A DNA stretch of 64,000 nt, taken from positions 6 to 64,005 of the IMG/VR virus record IMGVR_UViG_3300021958_000002; one strand, written 5' to 3'. The first letter of the stretch is position 1. The number at the start of each line of letters is the position of its first letter. The notes beneath the pieces are model-generated. The model was not told the DNA's origin and ran no database searches. It saw only the letters and a list, made by a program, of their open reading frames with translations. Source of the stretch: a virus (Duplodnaviria; Caudoviricetes). The position numbers were made by a program, and so were the translations under genes. Shown one piece after another: positions 10,083 to 40,416 of this stretch.

Positions 10083-11312
10083 ATGGTGGAATTTTTACAA
10101 AACTTAATCTTTGGGGTGGACTACCCAGGGTTGACACTAGCTCTCGATCCAATAACTATAGCTCTTATGGCTCAGGGCATTACCAAAGGGGTGCAGGGCA
10201 TTGTCCAGTCTAGGGCAGGAAAGAAAACAAGAGACGAAGGTAGAGACCTCTTTGACAAGCAAGTAGAAGACTTTCGATCTGGAAAGTACGACCTCTCTCT
10301 TGGTCAGGGCGTATACGACGCCTATACTAACACACAGAGACTGGCAGAGGAGGCGGCAGCAAGAACTGGAGAGGCTGGCAGATCTGCAATAAGCAGCGCT
10401 ATAGCAAATACACGATACGGAGACCCAAGAACAGCTTTTCTCACCCCTAAGACAGCCCAGACAGTTATGAGTGGGGTTAATGACGCTAACATAAAGGCGG
10501 CTAATGATCAAGCAGCCGCCACTATGGGGTTGGCTACCACTGAGCAGGGTATAAAGACGGCAAATGAAACGACCAGGCAGCAGATGGAGTCTATGTTGAT
10601 GGCGAGGGGGGCTGGCATGGAGCAGCAGGGGATACAGCAAAGGCAGGAAGGAATCAATACTGCAATTGGTGGTTTTGGGGATGCTACTGGTGCGGTTGGA
10701 GCGGAGCTGGCCAGCGGAGACGGCGGCCTAGACACCGATTATCTGAAGTATTTGGGGGTTAGTGGTAAAGGGGGGATGAGAGTCCCTAAGTATGTTCTTG
10801 GGGGGATGCTTGGTCGCATGATTAGCTCAGGCATGAACACTATGGCTAGCTCAGGCATGAACACTATTGGAGATAGAGTGGCCGAGTCGGCAATGGAGGG
10901 TATTGGTAGAAGAAGAGCCGCTAAGGGGAAAGACACAAGGTTGTTTGGGTACACGGCTGAAGATTTTGACGCAGAAGGAAATCTCGCAAATAATGATAGT
11001 GGTGACATCACCATAACCGTCAGCAAAGACGGTGAGGTTCAAAGTATGCAGGACGGTGGCGTCGCCCCAGAGATACTCCCAGGAGAGTTTGACCATGGCA
11101 GTAACCCAATTCATATGGTGGATGACAACGGCAACAAGGTTGCTGAAGCGACAGGTGGTGAGATACTGTTTAACAATACTCAATCAAACAACCTGATTAG
11201 ACTGCTTCAGTCTGGCGACCCTGAAGCTCTGTATGCTTACCTTGCAGAACTAATGCAGTCCCCTCAATTTCAGATGGAGGTTGAGGAGTACAATTCAGAA
11301 TTAAATGGCTGA
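10083..11312 (+). CDS. Internal virion cargo/ejection protein
   Basis: Ala/Gly/Gln-rich helical protein; C-terminal PGEFDHGSNPI...EATGGE module; start reassigned to the second Met from promoter spacing. Confidence 0.6.
   Translation: MVEFLQNLIFGVDYPGLTLALDPITIALMAQGITKGVQGIVQSRAGKKTRDEGRDLFDKQVEDFRSGKYDLSLGQGVYDAYTNTQRLAEEAAARTGEAGRSAISSAIANTRYGDPRTAFLTPKTAQTVMSGVNDANIKAANDQAAATMGLATTEQGIKTANETTRQQMESMLMARGAGMEQQGIQQRQEGINTAIGGFGDATGAVGAELASGDGGLDTDYLKYLGVSGKGGMRVPKYVLGGMLGRMISSGMNTMASSGMNTIGDRVAESAMEGIGRRRAAKGKDTRLFGYTAEDFDAEGNLANNDSGDITITVSKDGEVQSMQDGGVAPEILPGEFDHGSNPIHMVDDNGNKVAEATGGEILFNNTQSNNLIRLLQSGDPEALYAYLAELMQSPQFQMEVEEYNSELNG
10823..10867 (+). repeat. In-frame tandem duplication (21-nt unit, 24-nt period)
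   Basis: tagctcaggcatgaacactat at 10823-10843 and 10847-10867 (ISSGMNTM/ASSGMNTI). Confidence 0.95.
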
Positions 11313-13158
11313 TTTATTCTCAAACGTACCGATTCCGCAACCGTTAAATCCGTTGCAGAAACCAGATGCGTCATCAAATTCACTGGTTCAACAGTTAGCC
11401 AATGCGAAGCAACGGCAGTTTGAGATGTTTCGAATGGGCGAGAACGCCAGACGGGACGACTTAAACACACTATTGGAGTACGATGCCTATAAGCTAGGGC
11501 AGTCGTTTGGTGCGCTTTACAATATGCAGGCCGAAAGGGTGAAGGACCAGATCATGAATGGTAACCTTTCCCCTTCGCAGTCTAAAGCTCTTGTACTTGG
11601 TCTGATTAACGACTACAACAAGTACTACAACATACACGCCAAGCCATTTAATGAGACTTGGGATATGCACATGAAGTTAGCCACTGACCCCAGGCTTTTG
11701 GATCAATACAACGAGAACCTCCCTATTGGTCAGGTTTATACACCCATGGAGGTTGGGCAATTGGCCGACATTAAAAACCAGCAGCTAAACCAGAAATTTG
11801 ATATACTTGAGGGTGAACCAATCTTCCAGGAAGATGGTAGCGTTCAGGTTTATGACCCAATAGCAGATGCGTACGTGAAGCCTGAGATGCTGACTGGTAT
11901 TGGTACGTACGACAACCTATTTGCTGGGCAAGTGAGCAACCAGGACATAGGGGATCTGTATGATTGGGGTAGTAGTCAGCAGGCAAAGGAAGTTGTAAAT
12001 GTTGGGGGTAGATGGAACGAGGAGGCTGCCAATAAATACTTTAACAGCCACGTCAATTTAGAGAACAGAGAGGGTCAGGTTCACAGGTCTCAGCTTTTAG
12101 CCTCTTACGAGAATGCTCTCGAAGACACAGAGTCTGATCCATTCTTTACCGATGCTCAAAGACAGGTGTTCATAACAAAAGACCCAGAAAGCCCAGCCTA
12201 TGAATCTGTTTGGGGTGACGGAGGCCTGGCTGACAGCCTGTTTAGAAGGGCAGAGGAGATGGAGCTGTGGAAAGACGCTACATACTTTGAGCCAAATACA
12301 ATAGCCTCTGACGCTGCTAGAAGAAATCAGAGAAGAGCAGACAGGGAATTGCAGGACATGCTCATAACGTCTGGACAGATGGAGCCGTCAGCCCCAATCC
12401 TAAACGGTCCAGCAACCGCTAGGTATATAAGAAAGGTAGGTGATAAAACCACCATCTCCATTAGCACTGAGGATGGGGGGTTGATTAGCGTTATCCCAGA
12501 ATACCACTACATTAATGAAGGTGGACGACACGTCCTTAAGTACAGCACTACTGGAACAAACCTAACCCCTCAGGTGATGAATCAATTTGCCTCGCAGGGG
12601 GGTGCTGGGATGACTGCCCTTACCAGTGGAGAGATTGAGCTTAGTGGTTCAAACTATGACGCTGTTGACAGGTACATAATGGCTAAGTTTGGTGGCGCTA
12701 GGTTGAGTGACTTGGTTCCTGGGGAGCTACCAAAGTCAAACCCAGACACCCAAGTTGGTAGCGGATACTTGTTGAATGACATGCTTGGAACTCCTGAAAA
12801 TCAAGAATTGGAAACTTCAGGGATTTCAGTTACTAGTTTAAGGCCAGAAGGTTATTACGGTTTAAATGAGAACGATGCCAACCTTAGTAAGTTTAAAGAT
12901 GTCTTAAGGGATAATGGGGTAAACCAGGAGGCTGTTGATTTTATTATGAACTCAAAAGACTTCTACAACAGACTTCAAGCGAGTGGATACGAACCTTTAC
13001 AGGGCTCCGCTGGAGGAGGTATATCAGGTTCTCTTTATGGAGTCAGAACTAGAGCTGCCCGTGCTCTTGGGATAGAAACAGGAGAAGATAAAAACGTCCA
13101 GTTGGCGGTAGACGTTGCGTTGCAACTGCTAAGAGAAAACGGTATGATCAATGAATGA
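11305..13158 (+). CDS. Putative internal virion/ejection protein
   Basis: 617-aa ORF inside the cargo block, overlapping both neighbours. Confidence 0.5.
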   Translation: MADLFSNVPIPQPLNPLQKPDASSNSLVQQLANAKQRQFEMFRMGENARRDDLNTLLEYDAYKLGQSFGALYNMQAERVKDQIMNGNLSPSQSKALVLGLINDYNKYYNIHAKPFNETWDMHMKLATDPRLLDQYNENLPIGQVYTPMEVGQLADIKNQQLNQKFDILEGEPIFQEDGSVQVYDPIADAYVKPEMLTGIGTYDNLFAGQVSNQDIGDLYDWGSSQQAKEVVNVGGRWNEEAANKYFNSHVNLENREGQVHRSQLLASYENALEDTESDPFFTDAQRQVFITKDPESPAYESVWGDGGLADSLFRRAEEMELWKDATYFEPNTIASDAARRNQRRADRELQDMLITSGQMEPSAPILNGPATARYIRKVGDKTTISISTEDGGLISVIPEYHYINEGGRHVLKYSTTGTNLTPQVMNQFASQGGAGMTALTSGEIELSGSNYDAVDRYIMAKFGGARLSDLVPGELPKSNPDTQVGSGYLLNDMLGTPENQELETSGISVTSLRPEGYYGLNENDANLSKFKDVLRDNGVNQEAVDFIMNSKDFYNRLQASGYEPLQGSAGGGISGSLYGVRTRAARALGIETGEDKNVQLAVDVALQLLRENGMINE

Positions 13159-16100
13159 TAATTTACAGACCATCTACAACCTTATGGTTGATAGAAACTT
13201 TTATCAGGGGAGCTACGATGATTTTGCGGCTTCAATGTCATTGGTTGACAATCAAAAAAAACTGCACCAACTAGTCGTTGATAAGCAGTTGTACCAGGGT
13301 GACTTCAATTCTTTCTCTGCGTACCTGAATACGCCTATTAAAAAAAAAGACTCGATCGCAACAGCCCCTCAAGAAACAGCATTCTTTGGAGATGGCTTAG
13401 GGGGGTTTGGGGACTTCTTCGATGATGTGAGTCGCGCCATGGCCGCTCAGTATGGTGAGGGGAAGTTGACAAAAGAGGTGGCAGACATGATGGGGGGTAA
13501 CATAAGTGACGAAGACTTAGAGAAATATGTTTCGGCCACTGATGAGATCCAGAAGTACGGTATGTCGGACGAGAGAAGGGCCTGGGAGCAAGAAATTAGA
13601 GATGAGGGGGATACCGTGTGGAACACGGTCTCTGCTTACTGGCACAACCCTACAGTTCTTTTTGAAGACGCTCTCGGTTCACTTGCTGGACTTGTTGGAC
13701 AAGAGCTCAACACTGGTGTTGTTACAGGGTCTACCCTTTCAGGGGCTGCTACTGGAGGCGCAATTGGAGCTACAGCTGGGGGTATTGGCGCTGGGCCAGG
13801 GGCTGCGGCAGGGTCTTATTGGGGACTGAGAAGTGGTATTGGTGCTGCGTCAGGGGTTCTTGATGCAACAGCTACGTTTTCCAACTATTTGAGAGAGGAG
13901 TTGGAGTCGAGAGGCATGGACTTGACTAAAGAGAACGCTAGAAAGATTTTAGCCGACGAGGAGTGGCTACAAGAACACAGGAATAAGGCCATCAAGGGTG
14001 GGGCCATGATTGGTGTTTTTGACTTCATCACCTTTGGTCTTGCAGGAACAGCCTCTAAAGGAGTTACAAAGCCAATATCTAAAACATTAGTGGCTGGTAG
14101 TGTCGAGGCGGCTGGAGGGATGGCTGGGGAGGCTGCCGCTGAGCTCTCTAGAGGCGAGGAGCTTTCTCCTTCTGCGATTGTTGCAGAAGCTGCTGGGGAG
14201 TTTGGTATGGGTACAATTAGTGCTGGCCGCCAAGGGGTTACAAAGGGCGTTAAAAGTATGTCAGACGTACTCAACCCACCCAAGTACTATGTGAACGGCA
14301 AAGAGCTTACAAAGGACGATTTTACGCAGTTCATAGAGACAGAAAAAGATCTCACTGTGGACAACGACGGTAACCCACTTGACATAAAAGTAGAGAACGA
14401 TAAGGAGACGGCTAAGGTGGTGGAGGAGAAGGTGATGGATCAGACCATCGAAAAGTCAATCGACCCATCCATCCAAGGGGAAGACAGGAAAAAACTAGTT
14501 GCTCTGGAAAAGGAGCGAGCTCAGAAAGCAGACTCTAAGTGGCAGTCCTCAAAGAGAAGGGTCCAGGAGATTGATAAGGAGATCGACGAAATCCTATCTA
14601 AGGAGCGCCCTGAGGCAACCGAAAACAACACGCAGGCCGAAGCGGAGGACAAGAGGAGGTACAAGGAGGAGTTAGAAGCGGCTAAAGAGGCTGATCCAGA
14701 AGGGATGTGGAGCGTAACCGTTCCTGATGATGAGTCTATTGATAAAGGTACAGTTGTCAGAACTGACGGTGGGGTTGCGCTGGTGGATGAGAGTGGAGAC
14801 ATCAGAGGTCTTGGTAAGACAGACCCAGAGGCTAAAGGTGTTGGCCCAAGACTGGTTAAGGCTGCCGTAAAAGCTGGGGGCAGGATACTGGACAACTTTG
14901 ACATGCCGTACCTAACCAAGATATATAAGGATAATGGTTTTAGGATTGTTTCTAGAACTCCCTTTAATGAACAGTACGCACCAAAAGAGTGGAATAACGA
15001 AAAGCACGGGAAGCCTGATGTCGTTCTGATGGTTTATGATCCAGACGGTAAGATGAATATTACCGAAGAGACTTTTGGTACTTGGGACTCAGCAAACGCA
15101 TACCGAGAAAAAGTCCTTGCCGACAATCAAAAACAACAGCAAGAGGCCAAGGCGAAACAAGAGCAGCAACAAGCCTCAAACAGAGCAGACGACCTGAGAG
15201 AACAGAGAAGGAGGTTTACTGTACGAGCGCAAAGAACCTACAAGCAAATCAAGGACGACATCGTCAACAACCCTGAGAACTATTTTACACCTCAGAAACT
15301 TGCTGACATCAGGGCTGACCTTGAAAATATGACGATGGACGAACTTGTTGCCAACATGAACGAGACGTCTTTGTCAAACCTTATTAATGTACAGGATCAG
15401 ACAGGAGTCCTTGCTGGTATTGAGGCGCTAAACAGAGCTATGGCCGAGGGTACCCCAGAGGGCAACCAAAAGGCAGCTGCTATCGTAGAGAGGCTTGGAA
15501 AGCTAGGGACCAGCGTGGGTAGACTGCTTAGACATTTTGGTGAGTTAAAGAACTCTACCGTAAAGGGGATGTATGATGTTGTTCTCTCTGATGTGGAATC
15601 CAAGGGTCAAAAACTTACAGATGCCCAGAGAGAAAAGCTTATAGGGCTGCTGGAGCCAGTCCTTAGGCTGCAAAAAGAGATGGTTGAGTTGATCAAGGAA
15701 AGAAACCAACCATACGACATGACTGATGTCGAGCTCTTGAGAATGGAGAACGACTTCAGGAAAGTTGGGGACCAGTTGAACCAAGCTCAAAAGAGGTTGA
15801 ACCAGTGGATGAACGCCAACGTAGAGAGGGGTGCTGGAGAGCTTGGCACCATGCTTATACAGGGTAACTTGTTGACACCTATGTCTCAGGCGACAAACAT
15901 ATTTGCCAACATTGTAAACATGGGGCTGGCCATCCCAAGAGACTTTATCTCATTACCGATAGATGTCGCGATTCGATGGGTGTTGAAAACTACACCCCCT
16001 GAAAGGCAGTACTCTCTTGCTGCTTACATGCACGGTCTTAGGATGATGGGTCCTGCATTTGTGAATACGCTGAAGAATGAAGTGATCAAAGGGGAGCCAT

Positions 16101-17902
16101 CAGAGTACGTAACTGAATGGAGGATTCAGCGTGGGTTTATGCCGATTATGTCATTCCTGCAAGCTTTCCATGGTACTGGAATTGGTACCAAATTAGCCAA
16201 GAAGTACGGGATGGAGGTCGATGCGCCTATCAGCAGCAAGCAAAGAATAAAGCTAGGAATTCAGGGTTCGTTTGGGGTTCCAGCTGAGCTCATGTTTAGG
16301 CTCCTTTCTCTTGGTGATACTCCGTTTAGAAAGTACATGGAGGGTAAAGTCCTGTATCAAGCTGCAAAGGCTAGAAAGTTAGAAGGAAGAGAGCTGGAGT
16401 TGTTCTTAAAGTACCCACCAGAGGACGTCATGCAGGAGGCGCAGAGGGAGGGGAGGAAGCTCACCTTCCAGGAGAAGACGGACACCTCAGAGACCCTTGA
16501 GGCGTTAGTCTCTGGTGGTTCAAGAATTTTGAGCAAGATACTCGGCAGGGATATAGCTGATTTTGTGGTAAGGACTCAGGTCCCGTACGTAAGAACACCA
16601 GCTAACATTTTGAGCGAGACAATGAAGTATTCTTCATTTGCATTTGCTATGGCTTCTGCGTCTAAAAAGATTTATGATGGCAAGATAACTGATGCATCTC
16701 AAGATATAGCCAAGGGATTCATAGGCCTTATGATGGCTCAGCTTGCTCACAACCTCATCGCAGAAGGACTGCTTTCAGGGGAGATTGAGTACGAGGAGGA
16801 TGAGAAGAAGAAGAACTTGTCTTACGATCAATTCCCACCCAACTCAATAAACGTCTCAGGACTACAGCGTCTTTATAATGGGGACGACCCTGCTGTTCAG
16901 CCTAACGATAGATTCTTCAACTACACCAAGTTGGGTATACCAGGCGTCATACTTGGGTCTAGGGCCACTCTAGCTGGGTCTAGGGTTGATGAGGTAGAGA
17001 AGGGGTTTGATTTGTTTAGGGAAATTATTGGGTTGCAACCGCTTTCAACACTGAATCACGTTCTCAACCAAAGCTTCTTGCAAGGGGTCAACAACTTGAC
17101 TCAGATGATTGGTGAAACCGATGAGGAAAGGCTGTATGATAAATTTGAGAAGTGGGTTTACGGTACATCGAAAGCCATGACATCTATAGTCCTTCCAAAC
17201 ACATTCTCAGCTCTAAACAGGGCTAACAGAGAGTTCCTGCCAGACACAAGGGTTCTGGAAGATATGAGCAGATCTGAGCGGTTTATGGCAAGGTTGAAAT
17301 ATACCATCATGGACAGAACTTTCAACCTGGACAGTGCCGTTCCTGTTAGAGTAAACTGGAAGGGAGAGAAGATCAAACAGACACCAACTGGAGCTGATCC
17401 CTTCGCGTATCACTTGTACAATATTTTAAAAGCGAGAAATGCCGAGGCCGATCCAATATCAAATGAGGTATACCGACTTTACAACAATACTGGGGAGGTG
17501 TCAACCCTGGTTTCTACACCGTACTTCGCAAGAGCAAGAGCCGTGAATGTGCCAGACATAAACAGCAAGAAGCACCTCAACGCTGTGCTGGCTACTGGAA
17601 AGCAATACAGTTTCTTTGGCGACCCAGAATTTACTGCATCCAGAATTAAGTTAAACACAGAACAGATCAATGCGTTGATGGAGGTGGCTGGTAAAGAGAG
17701 GTATGCCCTGGCTCAACAAGTCATGGCTCATCCAAACTATGCCAACCTATCTGATGAGGGCAGAATTCAAATATTGAACGCGGTAAACGACAACTTCCGA
17801 AGCACACTCGAATTAAACGAGTACGGAGGCTTCAGAAATCACACCGTACTGATGTTAGACTTTATAGAAGAGATGTACAGGAATGAGCGAGGACAAGAAT
17901 AA
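13151..17902 (+). CDS. Large ejected (polyvalent-type) protein with a glycine-rich membrane-like segment and a GNAT-like domain
   Basis: 1583 aa; GAATGGAIGATAGGIGAG segment; IRGLGKT.PEAKGVG..LVKAAVKAGGRILDNFD...KIYKDNGF resembles GNAT motifs A/B. Confidence 0.6.
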   Translation: MNDNLQTIYNLMVDRNFYQGSYDDFAASMSLVDNQKKLHQLVVDKQLYQGDFNSFSAYLNTPIKKKDSIATAPQETAFFGDGLGGFGDFFDDVSRAMAAQYGEGKLTKEVADMMGGNISDEDLEKYVSATDEIQKYGMSDERRAWEQEIRDEGDTVWNTVSAYWHNPTVLFEDALGSLAGLVGQELNTGVVTGSTLSGAATGGAIGATAGGIGAGPGAAAGSYWGLRSGIGAASGVLDATATFSNYLREELESRGMDLTKENARKILADEEWLQEHRNKAIKGGAMIGVFDFITFGLAGTASKGVTKPISKTLVAGSVEAAGGMAGEAAAELSRGEELSPSAIVAEAAGEFGMGTISAGRQGVTKGVKSMSDVLNPPKYYVNGKELTKDDFTQFIETEKDLTVDNDGNPLDIKVENDKETAKVVEEKVMDQTIEKSIDPSIQGEDRKKLVALEKERAQKADSKWQSSKRRVQEIDKEIDEILSKERPEATENNTQAEAEDKRRYKEELEAAKEADPEGMWSVTVPDDESIDKGTVVRTDGGVALVDESGDIRGLGKTDPEAKGVGPRLVKAAVKAGGRILDNFDMPYLTKIYKDNGFRIVSRTPFNEQYAPKEWNNEKHGKPDVVLMVYDPDGKMNITEETFGTWDSANAYREKVLADNQKQQQEAKAKQEQQQASNRADDLREQRRRFTVRAQRTYKQIKDDIVNNPENYFTPQKLADIRADLENMTMDELVANMNETSLSNLINVQDQTGVLAGIEALNRAMAEGTPEGNQKAAAIVERLGKLGTSVGRLLRHFGELKNSTVKGMYDVVLSDVESKGQKLTDAQREKLIGLLEPVLRLQKEMVELIKERNQPYDMTDVELLRMENDFRKVGDQLNQAQKRLNQWMNANVERGAGELGTMLIQGNLLTPMSQATNIFANIVNMGLAIPRDFISLPIDVAIRWVLKTTPPERQYSLAAYMHGLRMMGPAFVNTLKNEVIKGEPSEYVTEWRIQRGFMPIMSFLQAFHGTGIGTKLAKKYGMEVDAPISSKQRIKLGIQGSFGVPAELMFRLLSLGDTPFRKYMEGKVLYQAAKARKLEGRELELFLKYPPEDVMQEAQREGRKLTFQEKTDTSETLEALVSGGSRILSKILGRDIADFVVRTQVPYVRTPANILSETMKYSSFAFAMASASKKIYDGKITDASQDIAKGFIGLMMAQLAHNLIAEGLLSGEIEYEEDEKKKNLSYDQFPPNSINVSGLQRLYNGDDPAVQPNDRFFNYTKLGIPGVILGSRATLAGSRVDEVEKGFDLFREIIGLQPLSTLNHVLNQSFLQGVNNLTQMIGETDEERLYDKFEKWVYGTSKAMTSIVLPNTFSALNRANREFLPDTRVLEDMSRSERFMARLKYTIMDRTFNLDSAVPVRVNWKGEKIKQTPTGADPFAYHLYNILKARNAEADPISNEVYRLYNNTGEVSTLVSTPYFARARAVNVPDINSKKHLNAVLATGKQYSFFGDPEFTASRIKLNTEQINALMEVAGKERYALAQQVMAHPNYANLSDEGRIQILNAVNDNFRSTLELNEYGGFRNHTVLMLDFIEEMYRNERGQE

Positions 17903-33372: not shown

Positions 33373-33510
33373 AGAATTTTTGATACAGACGGGACGGCTT
33401 CCTGAAGCGACAGGAGGTTATGTAGTTTGATGATTGAACGAGTCTGTTGAGGGTGATTCTGTGAATTAAGGAGAGCTATGCCTAAATGAGAGGTGTGGCT
33501 CTTTTCATTT
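33373..33510 (+). ncRNA. Candidate structured small RNA
   Basis: Lies downstream of a promoter with no ORF; stems acagac/gtctgt and ggcttcctg/caggaggtt; terminal G:U-rich hairpin 33471-33503 followed by T-rich tract. Confidence 0.4.
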
Positions 33511-33583
33511 TCTACACTATGTATGTGTACGATTTGGGGTACCCCCACATATGTCATATTTTTTTAGGGAAGGCAGTCTTGAT

Positions 33584-33591
33584 TATCTTTG
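33584..33591 (+). promoter_or_regulatory. -7 element TATCTTTG, 4 nt before ATG 33596
   Basis: gatTATCTTTGccttATG. Confidence 0.7.
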
Positions 33592-33595
33592 CCTT

Positions 33596-33880
33596 ATGAG
33601 AGCAATAATAGATCCAACCAAGAAATCAGTAAGGCAGACAGCCAGAAGGCAGATGTCCGAAGCGAGAGCCCAAAAGAGGACTCTAAAAAAGGCCAAGAGA
33701 GAGTACGACAAACTTAGTGGCGGTTACACTAATGTAAAAAAGCTAGTGGATGGTGAGGTTGTAACTGAGAGTGTTAAGAACAAGTCAAAAAGAGATGCAT
33801 ACAAGAGTATCAGGTCTAAATTTAGAGAAAAAAAGAAGCTTATTAAAGGTGTGAAGAGGGCGATCCTTAAAAATATTTGA
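33596..33880 (+). CDS. Lys/Arg-rich small protein (DNA-binding/internal virion?)
   Basis: Start reassigned to MRAIIDP; very basic. Confidence 0.6.
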   Translation: MRAIIDPTKKSVRQTARRQMSEARAQKRTLKKAKREYDKLSGGYTNVKKLVDGEVVTESVKNKSKRDAYKSIRSKFREKKKLIKGVKRAILKNI

Positions 33881-33881: not shown

Positions 33882-34541
33882 GTGAGATCAATACAAGACC
33901 ATAAGAAAAAGAAGACCAAGGAGAAGAAGCCCATTGTCACATCTCAAGATCCTGACTTCCCAGAGTCTTTGTTAGGAGGCACCGAGCGCCGTCTTGATGG
34001 CCTTACACAGAGGAAAATAGATTGGTTGTTGGATAATGGTTTTTATCAGAGACCAAATGACGGCAAGAACAGCAGAACACAACTAGAGGCAGGTACAAAC
34101 AACCAACACAGATTCATTTTTCTCCCAGACAGTCTTAGAGGTGAGTCGCATTACGATCTTCCTATACGCAGTAGTCTCTGGGAGAGGAGTGTTGGACCAA
34201 ACGAGTTTGAAAACTATTTCCTGTACGAGCATGAGGAAGAGGCCCAACCTACTTATGCTCCACTGAAACCTATTGGTCCAGAAAAAATAAATACAAGCTA
34301 CGAACAACCAGAGATCATAGAGACACCACCTACCCCAATGTTGACTGGTAGGCAGGCTGTTCAGATAGGTAGGGTTGCTCATGACAGAGATAATGCTAGG
34401 TATGGTCAGGTGCTCGATAAGGAGTACTACTGGGATGATGATTTGAAGAGGTGGCAGATGCGACCAGTAGATGAAGAGCGACTTGGTAAGCCCTTCCCTA
34501 AAGACGATAGAAAATACAGATTAATAAAAGCCAGTTTTTGA
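33882..34541 (+). CDS. Hypothetical protein (putative cargo)
   Basis: GTG start, MRSIQ N-terminus shared with neighbours. Confidence 0.55.
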   Translation: MRSIQDHKKKKTKEKKPIVTSQDPDFPESLLGGTERRLDGLTQRKIDWLLDNGFYQRPNDGKNSRTQLEAGTNNQHRFIFLPDSLRGESHYDLPIRSSLWERSVGPNEFENYFLYEHEEEAQPTYAPLKPIGPEKINTSYEQPEIIETPPTPMLTGRQAVQIGRVAHDRDNARYGQVLDKEYYWDDDLKRWQMRPVDEERLGKPFPKDDRKYRLIKASF

Positions 34542-35101
34542 TGAGGTCAATAAAGTATTATGACGGTGGGGTCCAGGACCCAGTAAAGAACAAAAAGCCA
34601 ATAACCGTTGAGGCTCTTGATGAGATACTTTACCAAAGACACGGTTCTGCAAAAGATAAGTGGAAGTTTGATGAGTTTAGGGGTCTTACTAAAAATGTTG
34701 AGGCTGGGTTTGTAGACAACCCGTACACTAAGATTCAAGACGATGCACCAAGCGACCCATTATTGGTTGGGAGAGGGGCGTATCAGTTTGATTACGAGTC
34801 AGCAAAAACAGCCTACCAGAGGCTGTACAACATAGCGAATCCACTTGGTTACTCTATCCCTACACTAACAGACTATGATTTGAGGAATGTAAACAAGCTT
34901 GAACCTGAAATTCAGGATATGCTGTTTACTGCTCACTTCATGAATGACAAAGGATCAAAGGTTACGGACGTTTTGAACGACGAAAGAACATGGGCTGACA
35001 ATTGGGCTGATGGTCACTGGAAGGGTGATCCAGAAAACCGACCAGCCAAAATCAATATGTTTAACGAGAGGTATAACGAACGATACAACACTGGTCAATG
35101 A
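34541..35101 (+). CDS. Putative virion lysozyme-like protein carrying the YxxGG tag
   Basis: E near the N-terminus, GRGAYQF, Q..LF, W...HW.G pattern recalled from lysozyme-fold proteins. Confidence 0.45.
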   Translation: MRSIKYYDGGVQDPVKNKKPITVEALDEILYQRHGSAKDKWKFDEFRGLTKNVEAGFVDNPYTKIQDDAPSDPLLVGRGAYQFDYESAKTAYQRLYNIANPLGYSIPTLTDYDLRNVNKLEPEIQDMLFTAHFMNDKGSKVTDVLNDERTWADNWADGHWKGDPENRPAKINMFNERYNERYNTGQ

Positions 35102-38100
35102 GAAGCAAGAGAAACAGGGGAAAGGGTTTACAATTAAAAAAGTATAACCTTGGTGGGGTTGTTAATGCAACTGATCCAATAAAAAAGCCAGCCAAAAGGG
35201 TTGGTTCTAGGATAAACCCTGATGGTACTGAATCTACGCACCTGTACGCAACAGAGACGCTAGACGGTAAAAACTGGGTTTCCTTCCCTATGCTGTTTCA
35301 AAATGCTGACGGAAGCTGGGTTGATATGTCTAGCGGTCCGTGGGAGGACGCGTACGAAGAAGCAAAAAAAAGAGGTGAGGTTATTGACTTTGGCCAAAAC
35401 AAGCAGGAGGCTCTTGACTGGGGTATGGGGAGTTGGAAGGTCAATCCATACAAGATCGATCAGCCAACAGCGATTATGGACAATACGTACATACCTACAG
35501 CTGCTGAGCAACAGTTCATGAACCTAGCGCCATTATTGCCAAAGGGGGATCCTGACCCATACAGGGATCAGGGAACCATAAGACCACAGCAGCCCAATGA
35601 GCCAACTTATCTCCAAAAGCTTTGGGAGGGGACCCCACTCGGTCAGACAGAGGAGGAAAAGTACGCCTCTCCAGATCAGATGTCCATGGTTGATGTCATG
35701 GCAGAGCCCCTTAAGGCGCTAGCTTATTACAGCTTCGACTCTAATAGAGGTAATATACCAACTAGAGCAGAGTGGGATGCGTTTGATAACTCAAATGCAA
35801 TAGACATGGCAACTAGTATTGTCAATCCATTCTGGTATATGAGTGAGATGTCAAAAGGCGGCTCTGAAGGTCTTGCTGGTATAACTGGGATAGGTAAGAT
35901 TGGACAGGTTGTAAGAGATGCATTTAATACTGGTGACGATGTCCTCAGGATAGCTGCTGAGAATGTGTCGAAGCAAGGGCAAAAAATGACCCAAAGGCAG
36001 TTAGCCCAGCAGATTAATAAGTCCCCAGCCGTTGATCTGGAGGAGTCTGTTTTCAATCCTAGTATATACGGGGTTGAAAATCCTGGTTTTGGAACTCATA
36101 ACAGGAGTATTTACGAAAGTTCCCACCCCTTCCAGGGATCTCTTATGTATTCTGTTCAAGATCTTCACTTTAATGATTATGGGTTAAGTGCTATTCGTAA
36201 AGTAGAGTTAGACCCTTATAAAGCTGTCAGGGGTTACTCTGGAGATCTTTTAGATCAAAGAGGATTTAACTATAATGCAAATTATCATGACCTTCCATTT
36301 ACAACTCAAATTGTACAAAGGCTAGATGGCACGTCAGAGGCGCAGGCATACGTTAGTTCGTCTATACCCCAGATAAGACCAATGCAGAGGGGAGGTGACT
36401 TAGAGAAGTTTATAGATAAAAGTGGTAATGTAAACCTTGGTGAGCTTACTAGGTACATAAGATCATCAAACAATATTACCCCAGCTGACAGGTTTATACT
36501 GGAGATGGGTATTGATGCCTTACCTCAGAGGTACAAGGACGGAGAGGACACCTTACCTTTTAATTTATTCAAACAACAGGTATCTGAGTTTGTGCCAAGG
36601 ATGAATATTAGAGAGTCCAGCACGTATGCCGATATATTACTCGATAACATCATTCCAAATCCAGCTACACAGATTGAGGATCATACGACTGTAATTATTG
36701 GTGAAAGCGACCTACCAATGAGCGATGAGAATTCCTTGGCGTCAGCCCCAACAAACATGCCTACCTCTCTTGAGAGTTCAGGAAACTACATGCTGAACCT
36801 AAAGGAACAGAAATACAATAAACACTTTGACTTACCGAAAGACCCAGATGGAAATACAATTGGTTATCACTCTCACTACAGGGTTTACCAACTAAAGGGT
36901 GAACCAGAAGTGTCTTATTTTCCAGAAATTCAATCAGATGGACTTCAGCCTGGTGGTGGTAGTGAGTACAACCTCAAAATGAATGCAGTCAAAAACGAGG
37001 AGAAGGCCATAAAAAAGGGAGTCGTTTTAAGCAATCCTCTTGGTTGGGAGAAGGATACTGAGACTAATACTTGGCATACAGGTTCCCCTCTATTCGCCTC
37101 CCCCGTTGAATTTGTTACTTCCGTTCTTGACATTAGCAGAGAAAGTGACCAATTTAGATCATACCTCACAAAAGCGGCAGTTGAAAACCCAGGGGTGGCT
37201 GGAGCTCAAGGTCTTAACCTAGACTTTGATCAAAGATCTCTAAAACAAATTGAAAGTTGGTTTGACAGTTTGAACCCTGATGATTTTAGGGAAGTTTACG
37301 ACAAAACAATTAGGCCAGCAATAATAAAAGACCTAAGCACCTTCCTCTCTGGCGACGAATTGTTAGGGGGTGGCCTACCTTCTCTATACGACAGGGCGTC
37401 CAGCCTATATGAGAGAATGGAAAAGCTAAGCGAAATGTTTGGTCCTAATCTAACTCAACAAGAAATTCAACAACTACATAAGGAAATTGCTTTTAATGGT
37501 GACCCAAGAGGTCTGGCTAAATTTCAACAATCAGAGTATAGAGAGATTGGCGACGAAGTAGTGGACATCGTAGAAGGCGTAACTAGAGCGAGTCAATTTG
37601 TTTCTTCTGTTGAGTATGAGGTCAGAGATATCGTTAGAGTTGCTGGAAAGGTCGAAGATTCATTTATTCGAGCATTTGAATACCGCCCTAAACCAGGATT
37701 TGAAAATTCTTTTCGTCAGGCAGATCAAAATGAGATTCTTATATCGTCTATTGGTGATGTATTGCTACCACAGGGGACAATTTCTAGGATTAATCAGATA
37801 GTCAAAGAAATAAGAAGTCTTGAGTCCTCACTAAATAGAGATCTTGACAGCTTGGAGGTTTTGAAGAAACGGATAGGAGCGGTCAGATCTTCGTTTAATG
37901 TATTTACAGAGGAGGCTTTTCCAAAGTTAGATACTGAAAATCCTGAAGGTTATGGACTGTTGCGAACGACTGAAGAGTTTGAAATCCTCAAAAACGACAT
38001 AGAGGACGCTAGGTTTTTAATAAACGATATAGCTGGGGGTAGGTACAACTTTGAAAACGGAACGCAAGACGCTACATCTAGTTTTACTGGCATTATGAAA

Positions 38101-38586
38101 CTTATGGGTTCCACTACAGAGATATCAAATAGGATGAATGTTTTGATAGAGGAATACAATAGTGAGGTTCAAAAAATAGTGTCTGGTTATATGCCTGATC
38201 ATTCACATCTATACAAAAACCCAGTCTCCCAAGTAATGAGAAAGAGACCTGAGAGGAGGATTATAAACGAGGCTCTACACGGTCCACATAACAATCTATA
38301 TAACAGGTTCCCAACCGAGGAGACCTCTAGAAAAATACAGGGGCATGATCAACAGAGCGAGAAATACGATGCTGTTCAGAGAAAATACAGGGACATGGAG
38401 AAAACCCTAAAAGCAATGGGGTATGAACCCAAACTTGTAACTGATAAGTACGGAAATACGTGGTGGGAGGTAAAGGCTACCACAGGTATGCTTCATGGTA
38501 CCGCTGAGTATGACGCCTACTGGAAGGGCGGTAGAATTGGATTGAAGAAGAAGCGAAGCGGCAAGATGCGCTCCGTAAAATGTTAA
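35098..38586 (+). CDS. Large polyvalent-type protein with YxxGG motifs at both ends
   Basis: 1162 aa; HFD...H.RVY...YFPEIQSD and RFPT.ET...GNTWWEV segments. Confidence 0.6.
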   Translation: MRSKRNRGKGLQLKKYNLGGVVNATDPIKKPAKRVGSRINPDGTESTHLYATETLDGKNWVSFPMLFQNADGSWVDMSSGPWEDAYEEAKKRGEVIDFGQNKQEALDWGMGSWKVNPYKIDQPTAIMDNTYIPTAAEQQFMNLAPLLPKGDPDPYRDQGTIRPQQPNEPTYLQKLWEGTPLGQTEEEKYASPDQMSMVDVMAEPLKALAYYSFDSNRGNIPTRAEWDAFDNSNAIDMATSIVNPFWYMSEMSKGGSEGLAGITGIGKIGQVVRDAFNTGDDVLRIAAENVSKQGQKMTQRQLAQQINKSPAVDLEESVFNPSIYGVENPGFGTHNRSIYESSHPFQGSLMYSVQDLHFNDYGLSAIRKVELDPYKAVRGYSGDLLDQRGFNYNANYHDLPFTTQIVQRLDGTSEAQAYVSSSIPQIRPMQRGGDLEKFIDKSGNVNLGELTRYIRSSNNITPADRFILEMGIDALPQRYKDGEDTLPFNLFKQQVSEFVPRMNIRESSTYADILLDNIIPNPATQIEDHTTVIIGESDLPMSDENSLASAPTNMPTSLESSGNYMLNLKEQKYNKHFDLPKDPDGNTIGYHSHYRVYQLKGEPEVSYFPEIQSDGLQPGGGSEYNLKMNAVKNEEKAIKKGVVLSNPLGWEKDTETNTWHTGSPLFASPVEFVTSVLDISRESDQFRSYLTKAAVENPGVAGAQGLNLDFDQRSLKQIESWFDSLNPDDFREVYDKTIRPAIIKDLSTFLSGDELLGGGLPSLYDRASSLYERMEKLSEMFGPNLTQQEIQQLHKEIAFNGDPRGLAKFQQSEYREIGDEVVDIVEGVTRASQFVSSVEYEVRDIVRVAGKVEDSFIRAFEYRPKPGFENSFRQADQNEILISSIGDVLLPQGTISRINQIVKEIRSLESSLNRDLDSLEVLKKRIGAVRSSFNVFTEEAFPKLDTENPEGYGLLRTTEEFEILKNDIEDARFLINDIAGGRYNFENGTQDATSSFTGIMKLMGSTTEISNRMNVLIEEYNSEVQKIVSGYMPDHSHLYKNPVSQVMRKRPERRIINEALHGPHNNLYNRFPTEETSRKIQGHDQQSEKYDAVQRKYRDMEKTLKAMGYEPKLVTDKYGNTWWEVKATTGMLHGTAEYDAYWKGGRIGLKKKRSGKMRSVKC

Positions 38587-38598: not shown

Positions 38599-38606
38599 TA
38601 TATTTG
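38599..38606 (+). promoter_or_regulatory. -7 element TATATTTG, 4 nt before ATG 38611
   Basis: catTATATTTGcactATG. Confidence 0.7.
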
Positions 38607-38610: not shown

Positions 38611-39042
38611 ATGTCTGTACTAAAAGTAACAATCTCAGAAGAGCTCGTACTTAACGGGAATGACCTGGGTACTCAGAACGTATTCACGGATAGCAACATC
38701 ACGTTTGCTGACCGCAGGGTCATGGGTCTGGACGCTATTTCAAATAGATCAGTCGTAGAGTTTGGCACCAAACCTATGGCTGGTACTTTTCAAGATGCAA
38801 CAGTAGAGTACTTGAGAATTACCAACCTAGATACTACGAACGGAATTGTTCTTGACATTAGAGGTAACAGTGAGCAGTACTTCGTTGAGTTGGAACCTGA
38901 GTGTAGCTTCATCCTATCGAATAACATCATGGATGCGAATAACGAGAGTACCGCACAAACATTTTCCACTTCAAATATTGACACTATTCAGGCAATAGCA
39001 AAAGCTGGGACACCAAGTATTGAATATTTTATAGCAGGATAA
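38611..39042 (+). CDS. Putative small structural protein (beta-sandwich)
   Basis: YLRITNLD...VELEP..SF pattern, distantly like the 57472/57873 proteins. Confidence 0.5.
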   Translation: MSVLKVTISEELVLNGNDLGTQNVFTDSNITFADRRVMGLDAISNRSVVEFGTKPMAGTFQDATVEYLRITNLDTTNGIVLDIRGNSEQYFVELEPECSFILSNNIMDANNESTAQTFSTSNIDTIQAIAKAGTPSIEYFIAG

Positions 39043-39044: not shown

Positions 39045-39668
39045 ATGAACTCAATAAGAAGATACAACCGACCAGATAATCATGATGCCGAAAGCGCGGC
39101 CACTCGAAGAGCCATGCGAGAAATGGGTTATGACCCTGGTTCTGAACTAAGACTTCCACCACAACAATTGTTGGATGAAAAAGGAATGACCGAGGAAGAG
39201 TTCATGGACTCTGTATACGACAGAGCTAGAGATTATTATACCGCTCCAGCTAGATCAATTGTTGCAGGGGATATTGACTCTGGTTATGACGAACCAGAAT
39301 TGATGTACAATAACGGTGGGAGGTTTGGCGACCCACTTAAAAGAGCCATGAGACAGGCAAGAAGACAGTCTCGCCGTAGAGATAACTCTATTCTCAGCGA
39401 GGAGCTAAACAGAAGGTTTGAGGAGGTTGGTGCTAGCCAGATGATGGAGGAGATGGCTGGAATATACCCTAGCAAAGTGGCTGAGTTTAATGAGTGGTAC
39501 GAAGAGAACCTCCCAATGATTAAAGAGATGGCCTATAAAGAGGAGGTTGGTAGAAGAAATAGAAGAGACAGAGGTAGAAACTGGCAAAATAAGTACAACG
39601 AGCGGCTTAGGAAAAGGGTTGGGACTGGAGAGATGATGAATATGCTTAATAATTATTTTCAAGATTGA
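39045..39668 (+). CDS. Hypothetical protein with internal YNNGGRFGDP motif
   Basis: ORF in the tagged cluster. Confidence 0.6.
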   Translation: MNSIRRYNRPDNHDAESAATRRAMREMGYDPGSELRLPPQQLLDEKGMTEEEFMDSVYDRARDYYTAPARSIVAGDIDSGYDEPELMYNNGGRFGDPLKRAMRQARRQSRRRDNSILSEELNRRFEEVGASQMMEEMAGIYPSKVAEFNEWYEENLPMIKEMAYKEEVGRRNRRDRGRNWQNKYNERLRKRVGTGEMMNMLNNYFQD

Positions 39669-39669
39669 T

Positions 39670-40416
39670 ATGAGACCAGTAACAAAATACAACGATGGGG
39701 GCGCTTTAGGAGGTTTTGAGTCTGACCCTAATAAACCCCTTTTTACTGGTGCAGGAAAAAGAAGAAGGGAAAGAAGAAGAAACGCAAGAAGATATCAGAA
39801 AAGGGAAATCTCTAGAGAAGCTAGGGAGAGAATAAACGAAAACCAGGACTACGGTAGCGGTAGCTTAAGAGCTTTTCTTGAAAACTGGGCTGATGCAGCT
39901 CAAGATAGATCTATTTACAGGCAGGATCAGAAAGAGATTAGAAAGCAAATGAGAATGAGCCCTGAACAGTTAGAGGCTTACTACGCAGAAAAAAGCGGAA
40001 TGGGTGACTGTAAAGATGGTGCTTGTGGGGCCTATAAGTCTGGACCTACCGAAGAAGAAATTGCTTCAAACCTTGAGGCGGCTGCCGATCCAGATAAAGC
40101 GTGGAGACAGCAGCAAAAGATGGACCCAAACTACAACAAGCTGTACAACAGATTGAGAAGATGGGCTGGATCTATTGAAGAAAACAAGCAGAGACAGGCT
40201 GATCGAGCGGCAAGAAGGGAAGCGTTTTTTGACAGAAGAGAAGGTATCAGTATTGGCGATCCTAGCCAGCATAGAATGATAAGAAACCCGTTCTACAACA
40301 ACATAAACAGAATGCTAGCTAGATCGGCAGACAAGAGGCAGTATAAGTTGCAGCAAAGACATGGGGTTAAAGGTAGCAGCCGCCCACGTAACCAACGCAT
40401 AAAAGTCTCGTTTTGA
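39670..40416 (+). CDS. Arg-rich protein with N-terminal MRPVTKYNDGG tag
   Basis: ORF in the tagged cluster. Confidence 0.6.
   Translation: MRPVTKYNDGGALGGFESDPNKPLFTGAGKRRRERRRNARRYQKREISREARERINENQDYGSGSLRAFLENWADAAQDRSIYRQDQKEIRKQMRMSPEQLEAYYAEKSGMGDCKDGACGAYKSGPTEEEIASNLEAAADPDKAWRQQQKMDPNYNKLYNRLRRWAGSIEENKQRQADRAARREAFFDRREGISIGDPSQHRMIRNPFYNNINRMLARSADKRQYKLQQRHGVKGSSRPRNQRIKVSF

What the first reader, a model, noticed from the sequence alone, without database searches (positions are those of the whole stretch)
10783..40416. Shared MR[S/P]xK / YxxGG..DP tag on a set of otherwise unrelated late proteins: candidate cargo-sorting or processing signal
Seen: MRSIKYYDGGVQDP (34541), MRSKRNRGKGLQLKKYNLGGVVNATDP (35098), MYNNGGRFGDP (39303) and MRPVTKYNDGGALGGFESDP (39670). 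Partial tags occur as MRAII (33596), MRSIQ (33882) and MNSIRRY (39045). The same parts recur at the C-terminus of the 1162-aa protein (YWKGGRIGLKKKRSGKMRSVKC), inside cargo protein 10083 (GKGGMRVPKYVLGG, MQDGG) and at 57183 (HGMRIIKK). The rest of these proteins share no visible similarity. Inference: a short linear signal directing diverse passenger proteins (lysozyme-like, polyvalent, basic) into the capsid for ejection, or marking a double-glycine cleavage site. I know of no described function. This is the best candidate for an undescribed system.
Basis: partly seen in the sequence, partly recalled or inferred. Interest (0 to 1): 0.78.

Follow-up and report, generated by a model that had tools for sequence, protein, structure and literature searches.

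The report
Shared end-tag on phage cargo proteins
Seven neighbouring, otherwise unrelated genes of this marine phage begin with the same short, floppy, positively charged peptide, which also marks the joints where such proteins are fused in related phages; it is probably a label for proteins carried inside the virus particle, but its function has not been tested.

Summary
Y-x(1,2)-GG-x(1,10)-DP occurs in 4 of 88 window proteins, all adjacent, against 0.21 expected; 0 of 2000 shuffles reach 4.

The tag has three parts:
- a start, M-[RKN]-[SAP]-[IV];
- an optional basic-[YF]-x-x-G-G;
- D-P-x-K-K-(K)-P.

In the window and six syntenic relatives, 34 of 41 cluster genes carry the start.

The tag is under selection. 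12 of the first 31 columns of the 1162-aa family are invariant, against 128 of 1162 overall. AlphaFold2 models it as disordered.

It sits where modules are fused or split in relatives.

The 186-aa tagged protein has a lysozyme-like fold. 11 of 36 scanned homologues also carry the crassvirus cargo-protein-1 domain.

crAss001 cargo protein gp45 itself starts with a basic stretch followed by F-D-T-G-G.

Best reading, at 0.42: a portable cap on virion cargo modules, used for loading or threading. Cutting at Gly-Gly is disfavoured. The M-R-S-I start may partly reflect an A-rich translation start.

No function is shown. The scan has noted the [YF]-x-x-GG part before on other DNA. I found no description in print.

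The parts
33584..33591 (+). TAnnTTTG box ending 4 nt before the ATG of 33596; likely Bacteroidota-type promoter of the first tagged operon
   Evidence: The consensus is recalled, not tested here.
33596..33880 (+). 94-aa very basic protein (K+R 33%). Short tag M-R-A-I-I-D-P-T-K-K at 33596-33625; C-terminus R-A-I-L-K-N-I.
   Evidence: orthologues in L002, L009 and L012 keep the tag
33882..34541 (+). 219-aa protein with a GTG start. Short tag (M/V)-R-S-I-Q-D-H-K-K-K-K; C-terminus R-L-I-K-A-S-F.
   Evidence: orthologues read M-R-S-I-[QT]-D-P-K-K
34541..35101 (+). 186-aa lysozyme-like protein. Full tag in residues 1-20 (34541-34600); folded domain from about residue 20.
   Evidence: AF2 pLDDT 89.8, with residues 1-3 and 5-12 under 50. 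VIA Z 9.2 to a GH19 chitinase and 8.9 to lambda lysozyme. Homologues carry crAss_CARG1.
35098..38586 (+). 1162-aa protein. Full tag in residues 1-31 (35098-35190). A conserved stretch that relatives match at about 7-9% of the query (roughly 85 aa) and that I place at about residues 34-114 (35197-39) is shared with polyvalent proteins. C-terminal element Y-W-K-G-G-R-I-G...M-R-S-V-K-C at 38518-38583.
38599..38606 (+). second TAnnTTTG box, 4 nt before the ATG of 38611
38611..39042 (+). 143-aa protein, the only conserved untagged gene inside the cluster; likely head-associated
   Evidence: the homologue lies in the head module of a T4-like Flavobacterium phage
39045..39668 (+). 207-aa two-module protein. 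Partial tag at 39045-39065; internal full tag at 39303-39335, which is the N-terminus of a stand-alone 125-aa gene in L013 and L014.
39670..40416 (+). 248-aa Arg-rich protein. Full tag in residues 1-23 (39670-39738); C-terminus R-I-K-V-S-F.
40424..41008 (+). 194-aa protein with H-E-K-I-H (40637-40651). Untagged; present in the window and L009 only.
   Evidence: No Pfam, PHROG or PDB sequence match. The Atlas lead to LPD23 scores 0.89 and is only a lead.
10770..10805 (+). internal G-G-(M)-R-V-P-K-Y-V-L-G-G in the 10059/10083 protein of the tail-distal block
   Evidence: the Y-x-L-G-G is conserved in 15 of 18 aligned homologues
11046..11060 (+). M-Q-D-G-G directly before the conserved C-terminal domain of the same protein
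   Evidence: G333 and G334 are invariant in 18 homologues
57411..57437 (+). C-terminal H-G-M-R-I-I-K-K-V of an 85-aa Cys-rich basic protein that resembles DUF5872 modules of polyvalent proteins

Best explanation
The tag is a portable, intrinsically disordered 'module cap' carried by the phage's internal (cargo or ejected) virion proteins.

Structure of the cap:
- a start, M-[RKN]-[SAP]-[IV];
- an optional basic stretch followed by [YF]-x-x-G-G and a hydrophobic residue;
- D-P-x-K-K-(K)-P.

In related phages the same modules are joined into long polyvalent or cargo proteins, with the cap at each joint. In this lineage they are split into two tightly packed operons and each gene keeps its cap. 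The cluster therefore behaves like a polyvalent cargo protein broken into an operon.

Inferred, not shown: the basic, flexible cap is read in trans during procapsid assembly, by the very acidic scaffold-like protein (58988), by the portal or by the shell interior. This would load each module or hold its N-terminus ready for threading through the portal and tail. The cap stays on the protein and is not clipped off.

What is shown: the tag exists, is non-random, is conserved, is modelled as disordered and sits at module borders, and one carrier is linked to the crassvirus cargo-protein-1 family.
For: 1. Non-random and clustered: 4 of 88 proteins against 0.21 expected, with 0 of 2000 shuffles reaching 4. 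The script flagged the start pattern in 31 of 41 cluster genes from 7 genomes. Three more were anchored one codon early and read L-M-R-A-I, which makes 34 of 41. By my reading of the list, 1 of the roughly 80 other window genes fits the pattern.
2. Selection on the peptide: in 13 orthologues at 33-55% identity, 12 of the first 31 columns are invariant against 128 of 1162 overall. Codons for the same residues differ between tags (TAT/TAC, GGT GGG/GGG GGC, GAC CCA/GAC CCT), so this is not recent gene conversion.
3. Module borders:
 - P0011 (1689 aa) has a second copy at residue 628, at the junction with the 1162-type body.
 - The window's internal tag at 39303 is the N-terminus of a separate 125-aa gene in L013 and L014.
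 - P0096 and P0100 carry the tag internally, just before the 34541-like domain.
 - In polyvalent relatives [YF]-[QN]-x-G-G lies 2-15 residues before LysM or the conserved ~85-aa stretch.
 - [YFW]xxGG occurs 231 times in the 146 collected proteins, against 75 +/- 8 in shuffles.
4. Cargo link:
 - 56 homologues of the 34541 protein at E<=1e-3.
 - 11 of the 36 scanned also carry PF25725 crAss_CARG1.
 - The model is lysozyme-like: all 50 rows shown are lysozyme-superfamily enzymes or phage proteins, best Z 9.2, rmsd 3.7 over 147 residues.
 - The stretch shared by the 1162-aa protein occurs in proteins with LysM, YkuD, SLT, CHAP and ART-PolyVal domains.
 - crAss001 gp45, which was detected in virions and is bound to the portal (passages of PMC10172136), begins with a basic stretch plus F-D-T-G-G.
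5. Disorder: residues 1-3 and 5-12 of the 34541 model have pLDDT under 50, against a mean of 89.8.
6. A possible partner by charge: 58988, directly upstream of the capsid-protein gene, has D+E 19% and K+R 7%.
Against: - No virion proteome, structure or experiment exists for this phage or for any tag-bearing relative. Virion location is inferred from homology of one carrier and from domain sharing.
- The tagged cluster is not in the canonical cargo position after the muzzle-like gene. It lies at the head of the rightward operons, 5-11 kb upstream of the terminase gene.
- No window protein reaches the Pfam threshold for crAss_CARG1.
- The [YF]-x-x-G-G part is dispensable in two families. The L002 and L012 orthologues of 34541, and the L002, L013 and L014 orthologues of 39670, lack it.
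- The nearest cultured relatives have no tag: Elemovirus, phi38:1 and MW202828, each over the part fetched. It is therefore not needed for this virion type in general.
- The first four codons are extremely A-rich. Ile is ATA in 7 of 8 tags against 29% genome-wide, and codons 2-5 of all genes are already 44% A against 30% elsewhere. Part of the start may therefore be a nucleotide-level feature.
Confidence: 0.42

Rival explanations
1. Processing site. The Gly-Gly (or the Asp-Pro) marks where a protease, or acid-labile self-cleavage, removes a leader or releases modules. This is how adenovirus-type and asfarvirus-type proteases cut at G-G-X, and how the T4 prohead protease removes the capsid-targeting sequence.
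For: - The motif lies at module borders and N-termini.
- Iyer et al. 2017 propose that polyvalent proteins are cut into units by a metallopeptidase domain (passages of PMC5512222).
- An H-E-x-x-H protein follows the cluster in the window and in L009.
- The adenovirus and asfarvirus site rules are recalled, not from a call.
Against: - No prohead, C39 or clan-CE protease family in the 82 window proteins scanned. The only hits are M15 (an endolysin type) and an M43 peptidase with a signal-like N-terminus.
- The H-E-x-x-H gene is absent from L002, L013 and L014, which keep the tags.
- Orthologues lose Y-x-x-G-G without losing the rest of the tag.
- gp45 residues 425-552, which contain F-G-G and N-E-G-G segments, are one continuous resolved chain in the virion.
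Confidence: 0.15
2. Passive linker plus start cassette. [YF]-x-x-G-G is only a hinge that travels with shuffled modules. The M-R-[SA]-I start, and the R-x-I-K-type C-termini of the upstream genes, are by-products of A-rich translation-initiation regions at tightly coupled gene junctions in a host that does not use Shine-Dalgarno pairing.
For: - Stops and starts overlap or abut (ATGA, TAATG, 1-nt gaps) at most junctions.
- A-ending codons are over-used in codons 2-4 of the tags, and starts are A-rich genome-wide.
- The last codons of 33596, 33882 and 39670 are A/T-rich and sit just before the next start.
- The start part appears when a module stands alone (M-K-S-I-Y-N-D-G-G) and is replaced when it is fused.
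Against: - A pure hinge need not keep Y, N, L, G, G, D and P invariant across 13 orthologues at about 40% identity.
- A hinge also has no reason to persist at the N-terminus of a stand-alone protein.
- D-P-K-K lies up to 26 codons from the start in the 1162-aa family.
- The C-terminal M-R-S-V-K-C and M-R-I-I-K-K-V use the rare Arg codons CGC and CGA, and are followed by promoter-like boxes rather than by coupled starts.
- Other well-expressed late genes, such as the capsid and portal genes, lack this start.
Confidence: 0.25
3. DNA-binding arm. The Lys-rich D-P-K-K-K-P stretch and the basic residues before Y-x-x-G-G tether these proteins to the packaged genome rather than to a protein partner.
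For: The tags, and several carriers, are strongly basic: K+R is 33% in the 33596 protein, 22% in 39670 and 17% in 39045.
Against: - No DNA-binding family was detected.
- Internal proteins must be in the procapsid before DNA enters (established for tailed phages; recalled). DNA binding alone would not explain loading.
- The aromatic-x-x-G-G part is not explained.
Confidence: 0.1
4. Chance similarity among K/G-rich proteins.
For: The proteins are rich in Lys, Arg and Gly.
Against: - 0 of 2000 composition-preserving shuffles reach the observed count.
- Shuffling only the four tagged proteins gives a mean of 0.03.
- The tag is conserved in orthologues.
Confidence: 0.01

Closest known systems
Capsid targeting sequence (CTS) of phage T4 internal proteins (passages of PMC3012670)
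   Same: A short N-terminal peptide is the only thing shared by a diverse set of internal head proteins, and it addresses them to the scaffolding core.
   Different: - The sequences are unrelated.
- The T4 CTS is removed by the prohead protease (recalled). No such protease was found here.
- This tag also occurs internally and at C-termini.
- Targeting has not been tested here.
Cargo protein 1 (gp45) of Bacteroides phage crAss001; Pfam PF25725; PDB 7QOG chain M (PMC10172136, passages)
   Same: - gp45 starts with a basic stretch plus F-D-T-G-G and holds further aromatic-x-x-G-G segments.
- Relatives of the window's 34541 domain are fused to its portal-binding domain.
- That domain family begins [FY]-N-x-G-G-[ST]-H-E.
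   Different: - No window protein reaches the PF25725 threshold.
- The M-R-[SA]-I and D-P-K-K-K-P parts are not in gp45.
- The other crAss001 cargo proteins (gp46, gp47, gp49, gp50) have no such N-terminus.
- The paper describes no signal.
Polyvalent proteins of phages and conjugative elements (Iyer et al. 2017, PMC5512222; passages)
   Same: The conserved stretch near the N-terminus of the 1162-aa protein, and the small proteins at 56586 and 57183, correspond to modules of long proteins with LysM, YkuD, SLT, SET, ART-PolyVal and CHAP domains. That paper predicts such proteins are packaged and injected.
   Different: Here the modules are separate genes. The passages I read name no junction motif: 'glycine' and 'linker' each occur 0 times in its main text.
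Encapsulin cargo-loading peptides (PMC8346489 and PMC11866011; abstracts in the search listing only)
   Same: A short terminal peptide on otherwise unrelated cargo selects it for an HK97-fold shell.
   Different: Those peptides bind the shell protein directly and are mostly C-terminal (recalled). The partner here is unknown, and the sequences are unrelated.

Membership tests
T4-type capsid targeting sequence | Short N-terminal peptide shared by otherwise unrelated proteins of one phage | tested here: met
T4-type capsid targeting sequence | Removed by a phage prohead protease | tested here: not met
   No prohead protease family among the 82 proteins scanned. Cleavage itself cannot be tested with these tools.
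T4-type capsid targeting sequence | Sufficient to carry a foreign protein into the head | not testable with these tools
   Needs a reporter fusion in an infected host.
Crassvirus cargo protein 1 (PF25725 crAss_CARG1) | Protein matches the CARG1 portal-binding domain model | tested here: not met
   - 0 window proteins match at E<=0.01 or 0.001.
- 0 of 18 members of the 10059 family match at E<=1.
- hhalign of A2 against A5 gives probability 0.7%, E 0.079.
- Only homologues of 34541 from other phages carry the domain: 11 of 36.
Crassvirus cargo protein 1 (PF25725 crAss_CARG1) | Present in virions and bound to the portal | not testable with these tools
   Shown for gp45 only (PMC10172136).
Polyvalent proteins (Iyer et al. 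2017) | Shares domains with multi-domain proteins that carry ART-PolyVal, lysozyme-type and similar modules | tested here: met
Polyvalent proteins (Iyer et al. 2017) | Two to fifteen effector domains in one polypeptide | tested here: inconclusive
   Most window carriers have one module. The 1162-aa protein has no Pfam or PHROG family at all, so its domain count is unknown.
Polyvalent proteins (Iyer et al. 2017) | Associated MPTase-type metallopeptidase | tested here: inconclusive
   The 40424 protein has H-E-K-I-H but no Pfam match at E<=0.01. The Atlas lead to LPD23 scores 0.89.
Double-glycine bacteriocin leader with C39 peptidase | A C39 peptidase or ABC exporter encoded nearby | tested here: not met
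   No such family in the window.
Encapsulin cargo-loading peptide | Peptide binds the inner face of the HK97-fold shell protein | not tested
   My one complex job went to the portal. The capsid protein and the scaffold were not tried.
Lysozyme-like superfamily (for the 34541 carrier) | Lysozyme-type fold with a conserved catalytic Glu | tested here: met
   - E54, G79 and Q82 are invariant in 36 sequences.
- VIA Z 9.2/3.7 A/147 aa to chain 2dbt_A and 8.9/3.6 A/124 aa to lambda lysozyme.
- Foldseek alone gives no match at E<=0.001.
- Activity was not tested.

The most novel reading that the evidence does not exclude
The caps form an address-and-order code. The N-terminal cap (M-R-S-I-K...) of one cargo protein pairs with the C-terminal element of the previous one (R-x-I-K-x-S-F, or Y-x-K-G-G-R-I-G...M-R-S-V-K). 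The separately made proteins would then form a non-covalent 'polyprotein' that is loaded together and threaded through the portal and tail in gene order. This would be the first cargo-sorting and sequencing signal described for crass-related podoviruses.
Probability: 0.07. Interest if true: 0.85.

Novelty: new variant of a known kind. Interest (0 to 1): 0.62.

Why it matters
How podoviruses of the crAss type choose which proteins go into the particle is not known. The crAss001 structure paper lists five cargo proteins totalling several MDa and names no signal.

A short, transferable, conserved cap on unrelated cargo modules makes that question testable with a reporter fusion. If it works, it would also be a handle for packing foreign proteins into such phages.

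The cap also explains how these phages trade modules between one long polyvalent protein and many small genes.

The lineage is common in ocean metagenomes: the portal protein has 2244 relatives at E<=1e-20 among the 8000 candidates scored.

Tried and rejected
- **Docking test.** ESMFold2 complex of the portal (alignment A3, 810 aa) with tag residues 1-45 of the 1162-aa family (A1). Verdict 'no answer', score 0.00 in both runs, controls not run. I count this neither for nor against binding. Scaffold, capsid protein and the 143-aa protein were not tried because the cap is one job.
- **Is the 10059/10083 protein a cargo-protein-1 homologue?**
  - AF2 model unusable, mean pLDDT 43.2.
  - Pfam finds no CARG1 in 0 of 18 members; one member hits T7_gp14 at E 0.0037.
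  - hhalign is insignificant.
  - A profile search of PDB sequences is empty.
  - The G-G...H-x-x-N-P resemblance is by eye only.
- **A protease for the cleavage idea.**
  - 58283, upstream of the scaffold-like gene, gave only unnamed viral clusters in the Atlas, with TM under 0.5.
  - PDB sequence searches with 34541, 40424 and 13151 found nothing below E 0.1.
- **Cultured relatives.**
  - tblastn of 39670, 34541 and the 1162-aa N-terminus against 50,697 phage records: no match.
  - No tags in the fetched parts of four records: MW202828 (50.0 of 60.9 kb), an Elemovirus (50.0 of 60.0 kb), phi38:1 (47.5 of 72.5 kb) and an Immutovirus region of 24.4 kb.
  - As a result no virion proteome bears on the tagged proteins.
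- **DNA-level repeat.** The regions upstream of the tagged starts are not alike, and codons differ between tags.
- **Secretion signal.** The tags have no hydrophobic core, so I dropped this idea.
- **Single-protein scan of viral contigs** with the 1162-aa protein found no relative. The alignment scan found 2 loci.
- **Literature.** Six searches and passages of three papers gave no description of the motif. Subscription journals and supplements were not seen.

Full report
**What the window is**

The window is a whole, circularly permuted phage genome of about 64 kb. Its first and last ORFs overlap in sequence.

- The rightward genes run from 33596 through terminase (44931), portal (47065/47089), an acidic scaffold-like protein (58988) and the capsid protein (60179).
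- They continue across the window end into tail, large-protein and lysis genes (693-19677).
- The leftward block 19633-33557 holds replication genes.
- Terminase and portal are 28-47% identical to those of Flavobacterium Elemovirus phages, Cellulophaga phi38:1-type phages and one freshwater podovirus. Weaker terminase matches reach a crassvirus.
- I therefore call it a marine flavobacterial podovirus related to, but not shown to belong to, Crassvirales. Only a sub-threshold hit to the crassvirus muzzle C-terminal domain was seen.

**Checking the observation**

All quoted peptides are present where stated.

- The composite pattern Y-x(1,2)-G-G-x(1,10)-D-P is found in 4 of 88 proteins, all between 34541 and 40416.
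- Shuffling each protein gives 0.21 such proteins on average and never 4 in 2000 trials. Shuffling only the four carriers gives 0.03.
- Apart from the tag, the carriers are unrelated. The best pair in an all-against-all BLASTP is 39045 against 39670, E 0.003 in an 11-protein database, and it covers the tag and an Arg-rich stretch.
- None of the carriers has a PHROG or Pfam family or a match in 50,697 phage records.

**The tag is larger and more regular than reported**

I fetched six syntenic relatives: L002, L009 and L011-L014. Their gene starts show three parts:

- a start, M-[RKN]-[SAP]-[IV];
- an optional basic stretch followed by [YF]-x-x-G-G;
- D-P-x-K-K-(K)-P.

Counts over 41 cluster genes in seven genomes:

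| Feature | Genes |
|---|---|
| Start pattern flagged by the script | 31 |
| Start pattern after adding three genes I anchored one codon early (printed L-M-R-A-I) | 34 |
| [YF]-x(1,2)-G-G within 32 residues | 14 |
| D-P within 36 residues | 28 |

- The seven exceptions to the start pattern are the five orthologues of the 143-aa protein (38611) and the two of the H-E-x-x-H protein (40424).
- Elsewhere in the window I read one fitting start (57043) among about 80 genes.
- C-termini repeat related elements. R-x-[IVL]-K-type endings occur in 6 of 86 proteins, and four of those six are in the cluster. This pattern was chosen after looking.
- Y-x-K-G-G-R-I-G...M-R-S-V-K-C ends the 1162-aa protein. 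10 of its last 22 columns are at least 12/13 identical.

**Selection**

- In 13 orthologues of the 1162-aa protein (33-55% identical to it), K9, G10, K14, Y16, N17, L18, G19, G20, D26, P27, K29 and K30 are invariant. That is 12 of the first 31 columns, against 128 of 1162 overall.
- The tags of different genes use different codons for the same residues, and their upstream DNA is unrelated. The likeness is therefore kept at the peptide level and is not a recent copy.

**The tag marks module borders**

Several independent fusion or fission cases lie exactly at the tag:

- A 1689-aa relative has a second copy at residue 628, where an extra N-terminal module meets the 1162-type body (also locus L012).
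- The window's internal copy at 39303 is the N-terminus (M-K-S-I-Y-N-D-G-G...) of a stand-alone 125-aa gene in L013 and L014.
- Two longer homologues of the 34541 domain carry K-K-Y-K-Q-G-G...G-D-P-K-K or a related string just before that domain, and have their own short tag at the true N-terminus.
- The conserved ~85-aa stretch near the N-terminus of the 1162-aa protein stands alone, behind M-R-V-I-K-K-K-P or M-R-L-S-K-R-K-K-P, in L005-L007.

In the polyvalent proteins that share that stretch, [YF]-[QN]-x-G-G lies 2-15 residues before the next domain. Examples are motif at 711 with LysM from 717, 945 with 951, and 1259 with 1265.

Over the 146 proteins collected, [YFW]xxGG occurs 231 times against 75 +/- 8 in shuffles. 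K or Q is favoured before the aromatic residue, Q/K/N after it, E or S after G-G, and then L/I/V. This set consists of relatives of my queries, so it is not an unbiased sample.

**What the carriers are**

- A full-library HMMER search with the 186-aa protein found 56 relatives at E<=1e-3.
- Of the 36 I scanned with Pfam, 11 also carry the crassvirus cargo-protein-1 domain PF25725 downstream. Two give weak Phage_lysozyme2 hits, and SLT appears in two (one of them also a lysozyme2 hit).
- The AlphaFold2 model (36-row alignment) has mean pLDDT 89.8. Residues 1-3 and 5-12, the tag, are under 50.
- Foldseek gave no match at E<=0.001. VIA-align gave Z 9.2 to a GH19 chitinase, 8.9 to lambda lysozyme and 8.5 to the phiKZ transglycosylase. 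All 50 listed rows are lysozyme-superfamily enzymes or phage proteins.
- E54, G79 and Q82 are invariant.
- This carrier is therefore the stand-alone form of the lysozyme-like module of cargo-protein-1-type proteins.

The crAss001 comparison:

- The PF25725 domain family itself begins [FY]-N-x-G-G-[ST]-H-E-x-N-P.
- crAss001 gp45 aligns there at residues 422-547.
- gp45's own N-terminus is a basic stretch followed by F-D-T-G-G.
- The crAss001 paper reports gp45 in virions, residues 425-552 bound to portal wing loops, and an N-to-C ejection order. It describes no signal or cleavage: 'cleav' and 'protease' each occur 0 times in its main text.

**How it most likely works**

Shown: a conserved, disordered, portable cap on unrelated proteins and at module joints, with one carrier tied to a cargo family.

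Inferred: the cluster is a polyvalent cargo protein broken into two operons, each preceded by a promoter-like TAnnTTTG box 4 nt before its first ATG. The cap is what each module needs in order to be loaded or positioned. The acidic scaffold-like protein (D+E 19%) is a charge-matched candidate partner, and the portal is the precedent from crAss001. I put this at 0.42.

Rivals:

- **Processing at G-G or D-P: 0.15.** No suitable protease was found. The H-E-x-x-H gene is missing in three tag-bearing relatives. The G-G part is lost in some orthologues. gp45 is continuous through its G-G segments.
- **Passive hinge plus A-rich start cassette: 0.25.** It explains the codon bias (Ile ATA in 7 of 8 tags against 29% genome-wide) and the overlapping stops and starts. 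It does not explain the invariant Y-N-L-G-G...D-P up to 27 codons into the gene, nor C-terminal M-R copies written with the rare CGC and CGA codons.

**Known and new**

- The closest known systems are the T4 capsid targeting sequence, encapsulin loading peptides and the polyvalent-protein concept.
- None shares the sequence, and none of my six literature searches found the motif described.
- Earlier agents of this scan noted the [KFYM]-x-x-G-G part on other marine crass-like phages. I saw those notes after reaching the same reading, and they are not independent evidence.
- Four points I have not seen in those notes: the M-R-[SA]-I and D-P-K-K-K-P parts, the split-operon arrangement, the gene fission at 39303, and the lysozyme-module link.

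**What did not work**

- The portal-tag complex prediction gave no answer.
- The model of the 10059 protein was unusable, and its likeness to the cargo-protein-1 domain is unsupported.
- No cultured relative carries the tag, so no proteome bears on it.

Noticed in passing
window 1557, 33584, 38599, 41009, 56574 (+ strand): Five genes have a TAT[AC]TTTG box ending exactly 4 nt before their ATG, in the form TAT.TTTGC..(A/T)ATG. This suggests leaderless or near-leaderless transcripts from Bacteroidota-type promoters. Several boxes follow a GC-rich hairpin and T-run.
   Followed up: partly
window 3-677 and 63410-64000: The last ORF ends with the same residues that begin the first ORF. The window therefore wraps a circular or terminally redundant genome of about 64 kb.
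   Followed up: no
window 18535-19677 (+): A 380-aa protein with a Peptidase_M43 (pappalysin-type) domain (E 5e-18) and a hydrophobic, signal-like N-terminus. It lies after the holin, at the end of the late genes.
   Followed up: no
window 56586-56858 and 57183-57440 (+): Small, Cys-rich, very basic proteins. The first is a stand-alone DUF6321 (E 8e-16). The second resembles the DUF5872 segment of polyvalent proteins by eye. Both are domains of long proteins in other phages.
   Followed up: partly
window 38611-39042 (+); L015 12001-12420: The untagged 143-aa protein has a 29%-identical homologue between the capsid and head-completion genes of a T4-like Flavobacterium phage. All copies start M-x-x-L/F-x-x-x-I-[STR]-E, which looks like a T4-type I-x-E protease site. 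That consensus is recalled, not from a call.
   Followed up: partly
window 34518-34538 and 40393-40413; L002, L013, L014: Two unrelated families (33882 and 39670) end in the same [IV]-[KR]-[AV]-[SK]-F, and this is conserved in relatives.
   Followed up: partly
window 42659-42838 (+): A 59-aa protein starts M-R-N-K-S-K-D-K-G-L-G, like the first 11 residues of the 1162-aa family tag. The same start is present in L002.
   Followed up: no
L013 about 5044-5658: The short tag's T-D-P-T-K-K-K-P-E-A-T-A-S-P unit is tandemly duplicated in this relative. That family ends in Y-G-G-R-L-G-R, like the C-terminal element of the 1162-aa protein.
   Followed up: no
window 47089-49521 (+): The portal protein has 2244 relatives at E<=1e-20 among the 8000 candidates scored, and many come from ocean surveys. 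This looks like an abundant marine phage lineage without a cultured member.
   Followed up: no
window 10059-10100 (+): 11 of 18 homologues start at the residue that corresponds to 10083 (M-V/I-E-F-L). 10083 is therefore the likelier start of this gene.
   Followed up: partly
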